Assembly: GCA_963780665.1 (NCBI GenBank)
Contig: CAWACJ010000005.1
Location: forward strand, 118,335-182,334
Reading direction: 5' to 3'
Source of the DNA: an uncultured Methanocellaceae archaeon
GTDB lineage: Archaea; Halobacteriota; Methanocellia; Methanocellales; Methanocellaceae
DNA length: 64,000 nucleotides
This document shows, piece by piece, positions 20,393-23,603 of this stretch (its first letter is position 1; every line of letters starts with the position of its first letter). Below the pieces are notes generated by a model that ran no database searches, had not been told where the DNA came from, and saw only the letters and a program-made list of their open reading frames with translations. Made by a program: the position numbers and the translations under genes.

Positions 20393-21439
20393 TTATACGC
20401 GCTCATAGACTGTGTTGCGCTCCACGGGCACGCGCCCTATGGCTGTAATGTACTGGCAGATCTGTTCCTTTGACAGGTAATCGCCATGTGTAGCGCCGCC
20501 GGCCATGGAGATCTTGTCTTCCATCATTGTCCCGCCGAAGTCGTTTGCACCACAACACAGGACGACCTGGGCCAGTTTCGTACCCATCTTGACCCAGGAT
20601 GCCTGGATGTTCGGTAATTCCCGGCCGAAGATGATGCGGGCGATCGCGTGTACCTTCAAGTCATCCATACCGCTTGCCCCTATCGACTGGTCGCTCAGGT
20701 TATTGTTCTCGTGTAAGAAGGTCAGAGGTATGAACTCAGTAAATCCATGGGTCTTCCGCTGGATGTCTCGTATGATCAGCATATGGTCTATGCGGTCTTC
20801 CCAGGTCTCGATCGTGCCATGCATGATGCTGGAGGTGGTCTTTATCCCCAGCTTATGCGCGTCCATGATGATGTCTATCCATTCCTGGGTGGATACTTTT
20901 TTCGGGCATATCTTAGCCCTGACCGAGTCCACCAGGATCTCGGCGGAAGCGCCGGTCATCGTATCGAGCCCTGCCTCCTTAAAGGCTGCCAGTGCCTGGG
21001 CGGGCGTCACGCCGGAGACTTTCGCCGCATAAGAGACTTCAAGCGGTGACAGCGCATGGAGGCTGATGTCGTACTTCGCTTTTATAGCCCTGAAGAGATC
21101 GCAATAATAATCGACGGTCATGTATGGCATGACGCCGGAAATAAAGCAGACTTCGGTGGCGTTTATTTTTTTGGCCTCGCCGACGCTCTCCATGATCTGT
21201 TCCGGGGTCATCGCATAGCCGATGTGGTTCCTGAAAGAGCAAAATTTACAGCCGATGACGCAATGGTCGGTAATGTCGACGAGCCTGTTGACGACAAAAG
21301 TTACCTCGTCGCCCACGATTTCTTTTCGCAGCCTGTCGGCTGTGTCGAACAGCTCGAAAGGATTGCCGTCCAGTAAGCGCATCGCATCTTCTTTAGTGAT
21401 CTCGCCCTTAAGAGAGCGTTCATAGATGTCTTCCAGCAT
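20393..21439 (-). CDS. Radical SAM protein, CofH-like (FO synthase subunit 2 family), paralog 2
   Basis: Length is 348 aa. CxxxCxxC motif CVIGCKFCSF, a C-terminal GANDFGGTMMED block, and ~50% identity to the adjacent CofH-like gene. Confidence 0.7.
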   Translation of the reverse strand: MLEDIYERSLKGEITKEDAMRLLDGNPFELFDTADRLRKEIVGDEVTFVVNRLVDITDHCVIGCKFCSFRNHIGYAMTPEQIMESVGEAKKINATEVCFISGVMPYMTVDYYCDLFRAIKAKYDISLHALSPLEVSYAAKVSGVTPAQALAAFKEAGLDTMTGASAEILVDSVRAKICPKKVSTQEWIDIIMDAHKLGIKTTSSIMHGTIETWEDRIDHMLIIRDIQRKTHGFTEFIPLTFLHENNNLSDQSIGASGMDDLKVHAIARIIFGRELPNIQASWVKMGTKLAQVVLCCGANDFGGTMMEDKISMAGGATHGDYLSKEQICQYITAIGRVPVERNTVYERV

Positions 21440-21546
21440 AGTTACCCCTGTAAGATGCCTAAATAGTAGGGCTCATAGATAATAAAACGCGCGTTTCAAA
21501 CACCGAATAAATGGAAAAAAGGACTTGCCTGTATTTGCTCACGCGA

Positions 21547-22626
21547 TCATATGAACTTGTACAGGGTAGTGCGCTGCCTGGGGTTGCGCCCGGCCTGCTT
21601 GATAATATCCCGCATCTCGCCAGGCGTCATGCACTCGCCAGACGTAGAGCCCGCGGTCCTCGAGATGCTCTCTTCCATGAGGGTGCCGCCGATATCATTT
21701 GCGCCACAGCTGAGCGCCACCTGCGCCAGCTTGGGGCTGAGCTTCACCCATGATGCCTGTACATTGACCAGGTCCCGGCCGAAGATGAGCCTTGCCAGGG
21801 CGTACATTCGGAGATCATCCAGCCCGCCGGCGCCCGCCTGCTTACCCGCCTTTATGAGCGACTCGCCGAGCGGGTTGTTCTTGCCCATGAAGGTGAGCGG
21901 CACGAACTCAGTGATGCCGTGTGTCTCGCGCTGTATGTCCCGGATGATGAAAAGATGGTCGATGCGATGCGCCCAGGTCTCGATGTGGCCGTACATCATG
22001 GTGGAGGTGGTCGGAATGCCAGTCCTGTGTGCGGTGGACACGACTTCTATCCATTCCTTAGTGTTTAGCTTATCGGGGCATATCTCGGACCTGATCCCGT
22101 CGTCCAGTATCTCGGCGGCGGTGCCCGGCATGGAGCATAGTCCCGCTTCCTTGAGAGCTTTGAGCGAATGCGCAACGGTGACGCCGGAGATCTTACTCAT
22201 GTGGTAGACCTCCATTGGCGAAAAAGCGTGTATGTCGATCTCGTACTTACCTTTGATCGCCTTGAGCATGGAGACATAGTAATCTAAGTACAAATCCGGC
22301 TGTAAGCCGCCCTGGATGCACACCTCAGTGGCACCGAAGCGCTTCGCCCCGTCCACCCGTGCAAGCATCTCATCGGTAGTAAGATGATAGCCGACATTAT
22401 TCCTGAAAGCGCAAAATGTGCATGTTCCCGTGCACTTATCGGTAAAATTGATGTTCCTGTTCACGACATAGGAGACATCGTCGCCGACCAGTTCCCTGCG
22501 TACTGCGTCAGCCGTATCGAACAGCTCGAACGGATTTGCTTTCAGTAGTTCTGCGGCGTCCTTTTTAGTGATCCTGCCCTCGAGAGAGCGTTCATAGATG
22601 TCGTTCAGCACCATATCCATCTTCAC
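21547..22626 (-). CDS. cofH: Radical SAM protein, CofH-like (7,8-didemethyl-8-hydroxy-5-deazariboflavin synthase subunit 2 family), paralog 1
   Basis: Length is 359 aa with [10 protein letters not shown] and [12 protein letters not shown]. It lies immediately downstream of cofG on the same strand, with a small overlap. Confidence 0.7.
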
Positions 22627-23603
22627 CAGCCAGCTTATTGATCAGGCTCTTTACTTTTTCCCCGTACCATCCGCGTTTTACGTATTTTGGATATACCGGC
22701 AGCCTTTCCCTGAGGTCCAGTCCCATGCCGCGTAGCTCGTCAAGCGTGGGCCACCTGCATTCGGGATTTATGTAGTCTTCCGTAAGAGGCGAGATACCGC
22801 CGATGTCTTCGGCCCCGGCCGCCAGGAAATCTTTGAGATGCGTCGTCAGGTTCGGGGGCGCCTGCAGAGAGATATCCTCGGGCAATATTTCACGCGCCAT
22901 CTTTAATACAGTTATCATGTCCTCGACAGTAGGTGGCTCAATGGAGCCCATCCGTGTGTAAGGCTTCGGGACAAAGTTCTGGACGATGACCTCCTGGATG
23001 TGATCGTACTTTTTGTGAATATCCCGTATTGCTTCAAGCGACTTTTTTCTGTCCTCCCAGGTCTCGCCGATGCCCACGAGGATGCCGGTGGTAAAAGGTA
23101 TGTGCAGCCTACCTGCGTCCTCGATGAATTTTATCCTCAGGGACGGCTTTTTTCAAGGGGCTTAACGCGTGAGCGGGAAGCTCGGCCGTGGACTCTAACA
23201 TCAGCCCCATGCTGGCATTGACCGGCGCAAGCTTTTTCAGGTCATCCGTCGAAAGCACGCCTCCGTTGGTATGCGGGAGCACCCCGAGGCTAATGGAATC
23301 CAGGCAAAGGTCGTAAACGTAATCGGTGAGTGATGAGTAGCCAAAGCGGCCCAGGTCTTTCAAGAAATGAGCATCGCCCGGCGAGTCACCATAGGTGAAC
23401 AGCGCCTCGGTACAGCCAAGCTCGGCTGCTCTTGAGAGCATCGCATGTACCGTATCCGGCGACATAATGTAAGCTTCGGGGGAGCCCACATCGCGGCGGA
23501 ACCCGCAGTAGCCGCAATTGTTCCGGCACATGTTAGTCACCGGTATGAACACGTTCCTGGAATATGTGATGAAGCCCGCCATACTTGCAATAGTACAGGG
23601 CAC
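22592..23603 (-). pseudogene. cofG: FO synthase subunit 1 (CofG, radical SAM), split by a frameshift in an A6 homopolymer (~23148-23153). This may be an authentic pseudogene or a homopolymer sequencing error.
   Basis: The N-terminal half (23109..23603) has CRNNCGYCGF and ends ...ALSPLKKAVPEDKIHRGRR*. The alternative frame continues ...[33 protein letters not shown] into ORF 22592..23077. Confidence 0.6.

What the first reader, a model, noticed from the sequence alone, without database searches (positions are those of the whole stretch)
20393..23603. cofG interrupted at an A6 homopolymer, followed by two tandem intact CofH-like radical-SAM paralogs
On the minus strand, a CofG-like gene (CRNNCGYCGF radical-SAM motif) is split at cttgAAAAAAgcc. 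The two halves match CofG collinearly (...ALSPLKK | [33 protein letters not shown]...).

It is followed by two CofH-like genes of 359 and 348 aa, each with its own CxxxCxxC motif and GAND(I/F)GGT(L/M)MEE block, at roughly 50% identity to each other. If real, a frameshift in cofG would abolish FO/F420 synthesis unless rescued by slippage or a second copy.

The extra CofH paralog may instead belong to a different pathway, such as an MqnC/MqnE-like enzyme or a modified deazaflavin.
Basis: partly seen in the sequence, partly recalled or inferred. Interest (0 to 1): 0.6.

Follow-up and report, generated by a model that had tools for sequence, protein, structure and literature searches.

The report
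Probable assembly frameshift in cofG locus
This is the ordinary deazaflavin (FO/F420) synthesis locus of a Methanocella-like methanogen; the break in cofG is one extra A in a short A-run, most likely a sequencing error, and the second CofH gene is a conserved family trait rather than a new pathway.

Summary
On the minus strand, cofG is split at an A6 run (23148-23153), and the two halves match the CofG model end to end (positions 1-147 and 148-321). Two intact CofH genes follow, about 54% identical to each other.

- Four close relatives (86-88% DNA identity) all carry A5 at the site. Removing one A gives a full-length 329-aa CofG scoring 427 bits against a cutoff of 209.
- The neighbouring frhA, frhG and frhB genes carry six more single-base insertions. 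All seven coding indels are +1 insertions, and deleting each restores a clean ORF.
- Window-specific substitutions show the same purifying selection in the broken genes (N/S 0.23) as in eight intact neighbours (0.24).
- I found no other split gene in the 64 kb.

Together this points to a local assembly or consensus error, or at most a very recent lesion. It does not indicate loss of F420 synthesis.

The cofG-cofH1-cofH2 order is conserved across Methanocellaceae. Both CofH proteins pass the CofH equivalog cutoff and fail the MqnC and MqnE cutoffs.

One real curiosity remains. The CofH2 clade, shared with Methanobacterium, replaces several residues that are invariant in canonical CofH.

The parts
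23154..23582 (-). cofG, N-terminal part. Carries the radical-SAM CxxxCxxC motif, CRNNCGYC. The mechanical ORF begins at the GTG at 23603; the orthologues' start is the ATG at 23582.
   Evidence: TIGR03550 positions 1-147; 89.7% identical to residues 1-145 of the intact L001 CofG.
23148..23153 (-). A6 run where the frame breaks. Relatives have A5 here, so the window carries one extra base.
   Evidence: L001, L002, L088 and L089 all read TTG-AAAAAG-CCG at this site.
22592..23146 (-). cofG, C-terminal part, in the +1 frame ([21 protein letters not shown]... to the stop).
   Evidence: for the translation. TIGR03550 positions 148-321, 241 bits; the rejoined protein scores 427 bits on NF004884, cutoff 209.
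21547..22614 (-). cofH1, the canonical CofH (355 aa from the ATG at 22614). Its start overlaps the end of cofG by 23 nt.
   Evidence: TIGR03551 487.5 bits (cutoff 374.1) and NF005609 474.9 bits (cutoff 426); nearest relatives outside the family are Methanosarcinales at 57-59%; canonical residue signature.
21440..21546 (-). Spacer between cofH1 and cofH2. It has an oligo-T run after cofH1 and an A/T-rich TATA-like box about 40 nt upstream of the cofH2 ATG. Separate transcription of cofH2 is inferred from this, not shown.
   Evidence: Read directly from the sequence. In relatives the spacer is variable: a 161-aa ORF in L001 and about 5.2 kb in L003.
20393..21439 (-). cofH2, a divergent CofH paralog (348 aa), intact.
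   Evidence: TIGR03551 449.4 bits (cutoff 374.1), NF005609 424.8 bits (cutoff 426); 66-69% identical to Methanobacterium proteins; tree placement; clade-specific signature.
24940..25608 (-). [quoted passage not shown]
   Evidence: PF01983 CofC orthologue in L001, 92.8% identical over the full length.
23767..24705 (-). Conserved membrane protein between cofC and cofG, with no family assignment.
   Evidence: syntenic in L001, L002 and L088; no Pfam hit.
17579..20389 (+). frhA-frhG-frhB (F420-reducing hydrogenase), convergent with cofH2. It carries six single-base insertions at 17941, 19176, 19245, 19599, 20039 and 20129.
   Evidence: frame changes against the intact L001 proteins; the insertions are absent from both L001 and L002; deleting them restores 417-, 230- and 286-codon ORFs.

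Best explanation
This is the standard FO-synthase locus of an uncultured Methanocellaceae archaeon. The minus-strand gene order is cofC, a membrane protein, cofG, cofH1, cofH2. cofH2 is convergent with frhAGB on the plus strand.

cofG and the overlapping cofH1 encode the two radical-SAM subunits that make the deazaflavin FO. CofH cleaves tyrosine and joins the hydroxybenzyl fragment to 5-amino-6-ribitylaminouracil. CofG then cyclises the product.

The break in cofG is one extra A in an A5 run. It is most likely an error in the assembled consensus, one of seven single-base insertions confined to about 5 kb of this contig. It is probably not a biological loss of function, so the organism most likely has an intact 329-aa CofG.

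cofH2 is a real, selectively maintained second CofH-type gene present throughout Methanocellaceae. Its role is either a second FO-synthase subunit or a diverged activity; this is inferred, not shown.
For: 1. **The site.** Four relatives at 86-88% DNA identity all have A5 where the window has A6, with near-identical flanks. These are L001, L002 and L089 (contig names like those of the Nanopore/Flye MAGs) and L088 (NCBI MAG contig DASXVM010000102.1).
2. **The repair.** Deleting one A gives a 329-aa protein that matches the CofG equivalog over its full length: NF004884 427 bits (cutoff 209) and TIGR03550 422 bits. There are no internal stops.
3. **The company it keeps.** The same three-way alignment shows six further 1-nt insertions in frhA, frhG and frhB, absent from both relatives. 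All seven coding indels are insertions (0.5^7 = 0.008 if insertions and deletions were equally likely). Removing each one restores a full-length ORF.
4. **Selection.** Window-specific substitutions are:
   - frhAGB: 74 synonymous, 17 nonsynonymous (N/S 0.23).
   - cofG: 24 synonymous, 9 nonsynonymous.
   - Eight intact neighbours: 215 synonymous, 52 nonsynonymous (N/S 0.24).
   - Fisher p = 1.0 for frhAGB and 0.36 for cofG.
   - The 95% upper bound is about 8 excess nonsynonymous changes in frh. That is far too few for a decay period long enough to collect six indels.
5. **Precedent in related assemblies.** L002, L089 and L025 each have their own, different split genes. Related MAGs named MFDxxxxx (L003, L006) come from a Nanopore-only Flye plus one-round-Medaka pipeline. 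Its authors discuss residual Nanopore errors linked to low coverage and homopolymers, especially in archaeal MAGs (PMC12313526).
6. **Locus identity.** The cofG-cofH1-cofH2 order is present in all seven Methanocellaceae loci examined. The roles of CofG and CofH are taken from PMC8498797.
Against: - No reads and no second assembly of the same species could be found. Exact-protein look-ups failed, and a metagenome DNA pattern scan across the A-run gave no hit. The error is therefore inferred, not shown.
- The seven insertions are strongly clustered. I found no other split gene in the rest of the 64 kb. A uniform error process would not produce that, so a local cause has to be assumed, such as low coverage or strain mixture.
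- Only four of the seven insertions extend a run of the same base: 17941, 19176, 19245 and the A-run at 23148.
- All seven hit F420-related genes (frhAGB and cofG), which is what targeted loss of a pathway would also look like.
- The source technology of the window itself is unknown.
Confidence: 0.75

Rival explanations
1. The frameshift is real. cofG, together with frhAGB, was inactivated very recently in this strain or population. The organism would then depend on another cofG copy, on scavenged FO, or be losing this F420 module.
For: - The sequence as given is frameshifted.
- The lesions are confined to functionally related genes, frhA, frhG, frhB and cofG, while about 58 kb of neighbouring sequence is clean.
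- The window also holds a likely genuine disrupted gene, a VOC-family ORF with an in-frame TAG, and a truncated GNAT gene. Gene decay therefore does occur in this genome.
Against: - There is no excess of nonsynonymous change in the broken genes (N/S 0.23 against 0.24).
- The broken genes have no internal stops or deletions. All seven lesions are +1 insertions, whereas natural decay in prokaryotes is usually said to be deletion-biased (my own knowledge).
- cofC, cofH1 and cofH2, which would be useless without cofG, are intact and under strong constraint.
- A methanogen of this family needs F420 for the methanogenic pathway (established biochemistry, PMC3087415).
Confidence: 0.17
2. The break is bypassed by recoding. 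Either +1 ribosomal slippage on AAA-AAA-G or transcriptional slippage on the A6 run would give full-length CofG from the frameshifted gene.
For: - A tRNA-Lys could re-pair from AAA to AAG after a +1 slip.
- The resulting peptide...LKKPSLRIKF..., is identical to the one encoded by the A5 version.
Against: - No relative carries the frameshifted arrangement, so it is not a conserved feature.
- The codon after the run is an ordinary GCC rather than a stop, and I did not check codon usage. I saw no stimulatory context of the prfB or antizyme type, reading the sequence against my own knowledge of those motifs.
- By my own knowledge, A6 is shorter than the runs that give appreciable transcriptional slippage, which are about 9 or more.
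- The six frh insertions share no slippery motif, so recoding cannot explain the set.
Confidence: 0.03
3. CofG works as two separately translated polypeptides, that is, a split enzyme.
For: Both halves are individually well conserved and open.
Against: - The first possible start in the C-terminal frame is the GTG at 23077. Starting there would drop 23 conserved residues ([23 protein letters not shown]).
- No relative has a split cofG at this position.
Confidence: 0.02

Closest known systems
CofG/CofH two-subunit FO synthase of methanogens (M. jannaschii MJ0446/MJ1431; Methanothermobacter MTH1198/MTH820)
   Same: - The corrected CofG and CofH1 are full-length matches to the NCBIfam equivalogs.
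- Both have the radical-SAM CxxxCxxC motif.
- The cofG and cofH1 genes overlap.
- The locus lies beside cofC and the F420-reducing hydrogenase genes.
   Different: - As assembled, cofG carries a +1 insertion.
- There is an additional CofH-type gene. Methanothermobacter is listed with only one CofH (PMC3087415).
cofG-cofH-cofH loci of Methanocella genomes and MAGs (Methanocella sp. MCL-LM, sp. CWC-04, and the L001-L006 and L089 MAG contigs)
   Same: - Same gene order, with the same two CofH types.
- In strain MCL-LM both types lie on contigs of the same 3.6 Mb length and both are named CofH by NCBI (P0146/P0279).
- CofH1 is 67-90% identical and CofH2 74-90% identical across the related loci.
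   Different: - The relatives' cofG genes are intact, with A5 at the site.
- The spacer between the two cofH genes varies: 107 nt here, a 161-aa ORF in L001, and about 5 kb in L003.
MqnE / MqnC (futalosine-pathway radical-SAM enzymes; MqnE structure 6XI9)
   Same: Same superfamily and fold. MqnE is the nearest solved structure for both paralogs (E about 1e-50).
   Different: - Both paralogs score far below the MqnC and MqnE equivalog cutoffs and above the CofH cutoff.
- CofH1 has the CofH-type PGTAAE motif rather than the Mqn-type PGGGAE. CofH2 has TGASAE, which matches neither.
Residual indel errors in long-read metagenome-assembled genomes
   Same: - Single-base insertions, four of seven extending a run of the same base.
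- Related long-read-style contigs show their own split genes.
- The issue is described for Nanopore-only MAGs in PMC12313526 and PMC9262707 (abstract listed).
   Different: - The errors here are clustered in about 5 kb rather than spread along the contig.
- The sequencing platform of this window is not known.

Membership tests
CofG (TIGR03550 / NF004884 equivalog) | Full-length match above the curated cutoff | tested here: met
   After removing one A, the protein scores 427.3 bits on NF004884 (cutoff 209) and 422.2 bits on TIGR03550 (cutoff 213), covering profile positions 1-321. As assembled, the two fragments score 165 and 241 bits on TIGR03550.
CofG (TIGR03550 / NF004884 equivalog) | Radical-SAM CxxxCxxC cluster motif | tested here: met
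   CRNNCGYC in the N-terminal fragment. Pfam Radical_SAM hit.
CofG (TIGR03550 / NF004884 equivalog) | Uninterrupted reading frame in the sequence as given | tested here: not met
   There is a +1 insertion at 23148-23153. It is judged to be an artefact, but that judgement is inferred.
CofG (TIGR03550 / NF004884 equivalog) | FO-synthase activity together with CofH | not testable with these tools
   Needs enzymology or F420/FO detection.
CofH (TIGR03551 / NF005609 equivalog): cofH1 | Score above the curated cutoffs and the canonical residue signature | tested here: met
   487.5 bits against 374.1, and 474.9 bits against 426. It has the Q101/P163/T165/A166/H210/L312/E315 set seen in the 186 canonical CofH sequences (H210 in 97% and L312 in 95% of them).
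CofH (TIGR03551 / NF005609 equivalog): cofH2 | Score above the curated cutoffs | tested here: inconclusive
   TIGR03551 449.4 bits, above the 374.1 cutoff. NF005609 424.8 bits, just below the 426 cutoff. The Methanobacterium relative P0175 passes both, at 465 and 430 bits.
CofH (TIGR03551 / NF005609 equivalog): cofH2 | Residues conserved in canonical CofH (Q101, P163, T165, A166, H210, L312, E315; CofH1 numbering) | tested here: not met
   All 121 H2-type proteins have F/I (one L), T, A, S/A, T/S, M and D at these positions. All 186 others have Q, P, T, A, H (97%), L (95%) and E. None of the 150 superfamily representatives has the H2 pattern.
MqnC / MqnE (TIGR03699 / TIGR03700) | Score above the equivalog cutoff | tested here: not met
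   cofH1 scores 344.8 against 428.1 and 312.6 against 434.6. cofH2 scores 331.6 against 428.1 and 299.5 against 434.6.
Programmed +1 frameshift site | Frameshifted arrangement conserved in relatives, with a stimulatory context | tested here: not met
   All four close relatives are in frame with A5. The next codon is GCC and there is no stop codon at the site.
Decaying pseudogene | Relaxed selection (raised N/S), internal stops, mixed indels | tested here: not met
   N/S is 0.23 for frhAGB and 0.38 for cofG, against 0.24 for the controls; neither differs significantly. There are no internal stops once the seven bases are removed. All the lesions are +1 insertions.

The most novel reading that the evidence does not exclude
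The second CofH gene is not a redundant FO-synthase subunit. It may be the founder of a distinct radical-SAM subfamily, shared by Methanocellaceae and Methanobacterium, with an altered active site and so a different substrate or product.

The altered positions, in CofH1 numbering, are:
- Q101 to F/I, next to the GG motif.
- P163-G-T165-A166 to T-G-A-S.
- H210 to T/S, inside the GxIxGxxE-like motif.
- L312 to M.
- E315 to D.

The product could be, for example, a modified deazaflavin or an unrelated tyrosine-derived compound.

The clade is under purifying selection at least as strong as that on CofH1: 74-76% against 67-70% identity across the family, and window-branch N/S of 6/39. It appears to have moved between two archaeal phyla.
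Probability: 0.3. Interest if true: 0.5.

Novelty: new member of a known kind. Interest (0 to 1): 0.2.

Why it matters
If the frameshift were real, a methanogen relative would have lost de novo FO/F420 synthesis and its F420-reducing hydrogenase. That would be remarkable. The evidence indicates this is not the case, so the main value is cautionary: a cluster of +1 insertions in one stretch of a contig can mimic coordinated pathway loss.

The lasting point of interest is the CofH2 clade. It is a conserved, apparently horizontally shared CofH paralog with fixed changes at residues that are otherwise invariant. It is annotated everywhere as CofH, and in the paper searches I ran I found no mention of CofH paralogs.

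Tried and rejected
1. **Finding the same genome or species elsewhere, to read the A-run independently.**
   - Exact look-ups of four intact window proteins found nothing.
   - The closest sequences are only 86-88% identical in DNA.
   - A degenerate DNA pattern across the A-run found nothing in JGI metagenomes.
   - The genome-collection scan did not return the source genome; the best hit was 76%.
2. **Plasmid and virus origin.** No plasmid match and no viral-contig relative of CofH2.
3. **Testing whether Methanobacterium genomes also hold a canonical CofH.**
   - The representative-library search returned mostly fusion proteins at 47% identity or less, with no names.
   - Cluster look-ups gave no organism names.
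   - Paper searches for cofH paralogs or copies found nothing relevant.
   - The question stays open.
4. **Gene-neighbourhood clues for CofH2.** The Methanobacterium contexts are unrelated to each other and contain no F420 genes. The genes inserted between cofH1 and cofH2 in L001 and L003 have no informative domains.
5. **MqnC/MqnE assignment.** Rejected on the equivalog cutoffs.
6. **Other candidate split genes.** Pairs at 3-2717, 5099-6804, 35347-36352, 37329-39310 and 50736-52050 turned out to be separate genes.
7. **A first bootstrap tree run** timed out. It was redone with a faster distance routine.
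Full report
**What is in the sequence**

The minus strand between 20393 and 25608 carries, in order:
- cofC (24940-25608)
- a conserved membrane protein (23767-24705)
- cofG in two pieces
- a first CofH gene (cofH1, 21547-22614/22626)
- a 107-nt spacer
- a second CofH gene (cofH2, 20393-21439)

Beyond cofH2, on the plus strand and convergent with it, lie frhA, frhG and frhB (17579-20389).

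The cofG N-terminal ORF (to 23109) has the CRNNCGYC cluster motif and runs into a short out-of-frame tail after ...HALSPLKK. The +1 frame from 23146 reads [33 protein letters not shown]... through to the stop.

Against the CofG equivalog TIGR03550, the two pieces cover profile positions 1-147 and 148-321.

Both CofH ORFs have Radical_SAM and CofH_C domains. They are 53-54% identical to each other.

**Whose genome it is**

The rejoined CofG is 92% and 89% identical to proteins on two long metagenomic contigs (L001, L002). It is 68-75% identical to named Methanocella species and MAGs. The window is therefore from an uncultured member of Methanocellaceae.

None of four intact window proteins exists verbatim in the large protein collection. 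The closest DNA found is only 86-88% identical. No second assembly of the same species was available.

**Is the frameshift biological?**

*The site in relatives.* A multiple alignment of cofG from the window and its four closest relatives shows TTG-AAAAAG-CCG (A5) in every relative and A6 only in the window. The flanks are nearly identical. The relatives are L001, L002, L089 and L088 (an NCBI MAG contig).

*Repairing the site.* Deleting one A yields a 329-aa protein. It scores 427 bits on the CofG equivalog NF004884 (cutoff 209), matching the full length.

*The surroundings.* This is the most informative result. A three-way alignment of window 13.8-30.6 kb with L001 and L002 shows that the window has six further single-base insertions inside coding DNA:

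| Position | Gene |
|---|---|
| 17941 | frhA |
| 19176 | frhG |
| 19245 | frhG |
| 19599 | frhB |
| 20039 | frhB |
| 20129 | frhB |

- All are absent from both relatives.
- Removing the seven bases restores full-length frhA, frhG, frhB and cofG with no internal stop.
- All seven lesions are +1 insertions; none is a deletion.
- Elsewhere in the window I found no split gene. Every L001 protein with a match in the window outside this stretch aligns in one frame. Candidate ORF pairs picked out by a coding-potential screen proved to be separate genes.

*Test for decay.* I counted substitutions unique to the window lineage, that is, sites where all relatives agree and the window differs:

| Gene set | Synonymous | Nonsynonymous | N/S |
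|---|---|---|---|
| frhAGB | 74 | 17 | 0.23 |
| cofG | 24 | 9 | 0.38 |
| Eight intact neighbours | 215 | 52 | 0.24 |

- Neither broken set differs significantly from the controls: Fisher p = 1.0 for frhAGB and 0.36 for cofG.
- cofG in the relatives shows comparable or higher ratios.
- The 95% upper bound on excess nonsynonymous change in frh is about 8.
- A neutral period that short would be expected to give only a few substitutions, yet six indels would have to fall within it, all of them insertions. That does not fit ordinary pseudogene decay.
- It does fit errors in the consensus sequence. At most, it would be an extremely recent event.

*Context from related assemblies.*
- L002, L089 and L025 each have their own, different broken genes.
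- Related MAGs named MFDxxxxx come from a Nanopore-only Flye plus one-round-Medaka workflow. Its authors report residual Nanopore errors associated with low coverage and homopolymers, especially in archaeal MAGs (PMC12313526).
- I cannot show that the window comes from that kind of data.
- The clustering of the seven insertions in about 5 kb is not explained by a uniform error rate. A local cause, such as a coverage dip or strain mixture, has to be assumed.
- For these reasons I hold the artefact reading at about 0.75 rather than higher.

*Recoding and split-enzyme alternatives.*
- A +1 slip on AAA-AAA-G would give the right peptide. However, the frameshifted arrangement is not conserved in any relative and the following codon is an ordinary GCC.
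- A6 is short for transcriptional slippage (my own knowledge).
- The six frh sites share no slippery motif.
- A two-polypeptide CofG is unlikely. The first start in the downstream frame, the GTG at 23077, would remove 23 conserved residues.

**The two CofH genes**

*Family assignment.*
- Both exceed the CofH equivalog cutoff of TIGR03551: 487.5 and 449.4 bits against 374.1.
- Both fall well short of the MqnC and MqnE cutoffs. The MqnC/MqnE suggestion is therefore not supported.

*Conservation of the arrangement.* The cofG-cofH1-cofH2 order is present in all seven Methanocellaceae loci I could examine. Some have insertions between the two cofH genes. Strain MCL-LM has both types, and NCBI names both CofH. 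The tandem pair is thus an established family trait, not a peculiarity of this window.

*cofH1.*
- It overlaps the end of cofG by 23 nt.
- Its nearest relatives outside the family are Methanosarcinales proteins at 57-59%. That is what vertical descent would predict.

*cofH2.*
- Its nearest relatives outside the family are Methanobacterium proteins at 66-69%.
- In Methanobacterium the gene stands alone, in two unrelated neighbourhoods.
- An NJ tree groups Methanocella CofH2 with the Methanobacterium proteins (bootstrap 98.5). It places that clade as sister to Methanocella CofH1 (bootstrap 86), inside the CofH of Methanosarcinales, Archaeoglobi and their relatives.
- This suggests a duplication in the Methanocellales line, followed by transfer to Methanobacterium.
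- The tree is distance-based only. It lacks the native CofH of Methanobacteriales and Methanococcales, so the direction of transfer is tentative.

**A signature that sets CofH2 apart**

I compared 186 canonical CofH sequences with 121 H2-type proteins. The canonical set comprises Methanocella CofH1, Methanosarcinales and 76 diverse archaeal and bacterial genomes. Seven positions behave very differently:

| Position (CofH1 numbering) | Canonical CofH (186) | H2-type (121) |
|---|---|---|
| 101 | Q (100%) | F or I (one L) |
| 163 | P (100%) | T (all) |
| 165 | T (100%) | A (all) |
| 166 | A (100%) | S (107) or A (14) |
| 210 | H (97%) | T or S |
| 312 | L (95%) | M (all) |
| 315 | E (100%) | D (all) |

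- P163 and H210 are also present in the MqnE structure sequence 6XI9, which has D at the position aligned to E315.
- None of 150 representatives of the wider superfamily carries the H2 pattern.
- From general knowledge of radical-SAM barrels, these residues lie in or beside the GG, ribose and GxIxGxxE-type motifs that line the SAM and substrate pocket. This is inference; no CofH structure exists.
- The clade is at least as constrained as CofH1: 74-76% against 67-70% identity across the family, and 6 nonsynonymous against 39 synonymous changes on the window branch.
- This pattern is compatible with a shifted specificity. It is equally compatible with a co-adapted isofunctional variant.
- The deciding fact is whether Methanobacterium genomes also contain a canonical CofH, and I could not establish this. 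Methanothermobacter is listed with a single CofH (PMC3087415).

**How the locus most likely works**

- Shown by homology: cofG and cofH1 encode the two radical-SAM halves of FO synthase.
- From the literature (PMC8498797): CofH generates a 5'-deoxyadenosyl radical, fragments tyrosine and adds the p-hydroxybenzyl radical to 5-amino-6-ribitylaminouracil. CofG then cyclises and oxidises the intermediate to FO.
- cofC, in the same gene string, acts in the later conversion of FO to F420-0. The convergent frhAGB genes use the finished cofactor.
- Inferred: the cofG/cofH1 overlap suggests coupled translation. The oligo-T run after cofH1 and the TATA-like box before cofH2 suggest that cofH2 is transcribed separately.

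**Verdict**

- The biological reading, loss of F420 synthesis, is probably wrong because the break is most likely an assembly error.
- The paralog pair is a known, conserved feature of the family.
- Interest is low overall, with one modest lead: the CofH2 clade signature.

Noticed in passing
window 17579-20389 (+), sites 17941, 19176, 19245, 19599, 20039, 20129: frhA, frhG and frhB (F420-reducing hydrogenase) are each broken by single-base insertions that are absent from relatives L001 and L002: one in frhA, two in frhG and three in frhB. Deleting the six bases restores ORFs of 417, 230 and 286 codons. Purifying selection on these genes is normal (N/S 0.23). The operon has no frhD between frhA and frhG, as in L001.
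   Followed up: yes
window 20393-21439 (-) and homologues P0121-P0240: The CofH2 clade (Methanocellaceae plus Methanobacterium) has fixed replacements at residues that are invariant or nearly so in 186 canonical CofH sequences: Q101 to F/I, P163 to T, T165 to A, A166 to S (A kept in 14 of 121), H210 to T/S, L312 to M and E315 to D. No other superfamily representative shows this pattern.
   Followed up: partly
window 47702-48160 (+), stop at 47990-47992: A VOC/glyoxalase-type ORF, identified by eye from its motif and not run against Pfam, has an in-frame TAG inside the conserved motif (EQPWG*RVFRIYDPD). This could be a nonsense mutation, a substitution error or a read-through codon.
   Followed up: no
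window 47276-47587 (-): A GNAT-like acetyltransferase ORF (identified by eye, not run against Pfam) stops after 103 aa, just past the ...NGIGSAL motif. No continuation is visible in the other frames. The 47.2-48.9 kb stretch has low coding potential overall.
   Followed up: no
L002 (contig_21415), L089 (contig_88964), L025 (MFD09212.bin.2.201): Related long-read-style metagenomic contigs have their own, different split genes. L002 has split cofH1, frhB, crcB and DUF1297 genes. L089 has split frhA, frhG, mevalonate kinase and apgM genes. L025 has a split cofG. This shows that indel errors are common in this kind of assembly.
   Followed up: partly
window 21440-21546; L001 12164-12649; L003 4784-9988: The spacer between cofH1 and cofH2 is a variable spot. 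It is 107 nt in the window, holds a 161-aa ORF with no known domain in L001, and holds about 5.2 kb of unrelated genes in L003 (a YHS-domain protein, a CWB2 cell-wall-binding protein and unknowns).
   Followed up: partly
window 23767-24705 (-) and 34214-35164 (+): A membrane protein with no Pfam family sits between cofC and cofG in every close relative examined. A paralog 33% identical to it lies about 10 kb away in the window. A link to FO/F420 is possible but untested.
   Followed up: no
window 29692-29838 versus L001 2342-3595: L001 has an enolase gene between the DUF190 gene and glnA. That gene is missing from the window at this position and is also absent from this stretch of L002.
   Followed up: no
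L083/L084 1-7331 versus L085: In some Methanobacterium contigs, an integrase/DUF5906-bearing element lies a few kb upstream of the CofH2-type gene. It is absent at the same place in another strain.
   Followed up: no
window 8842-11433 (-): Two long ORFs of 335 and 515 aa have a codon-usage score below that of the rest of the window and lie in a lower-GC stretch (45-47%). They may have been acquired from elsewhere.
   Followed up: no
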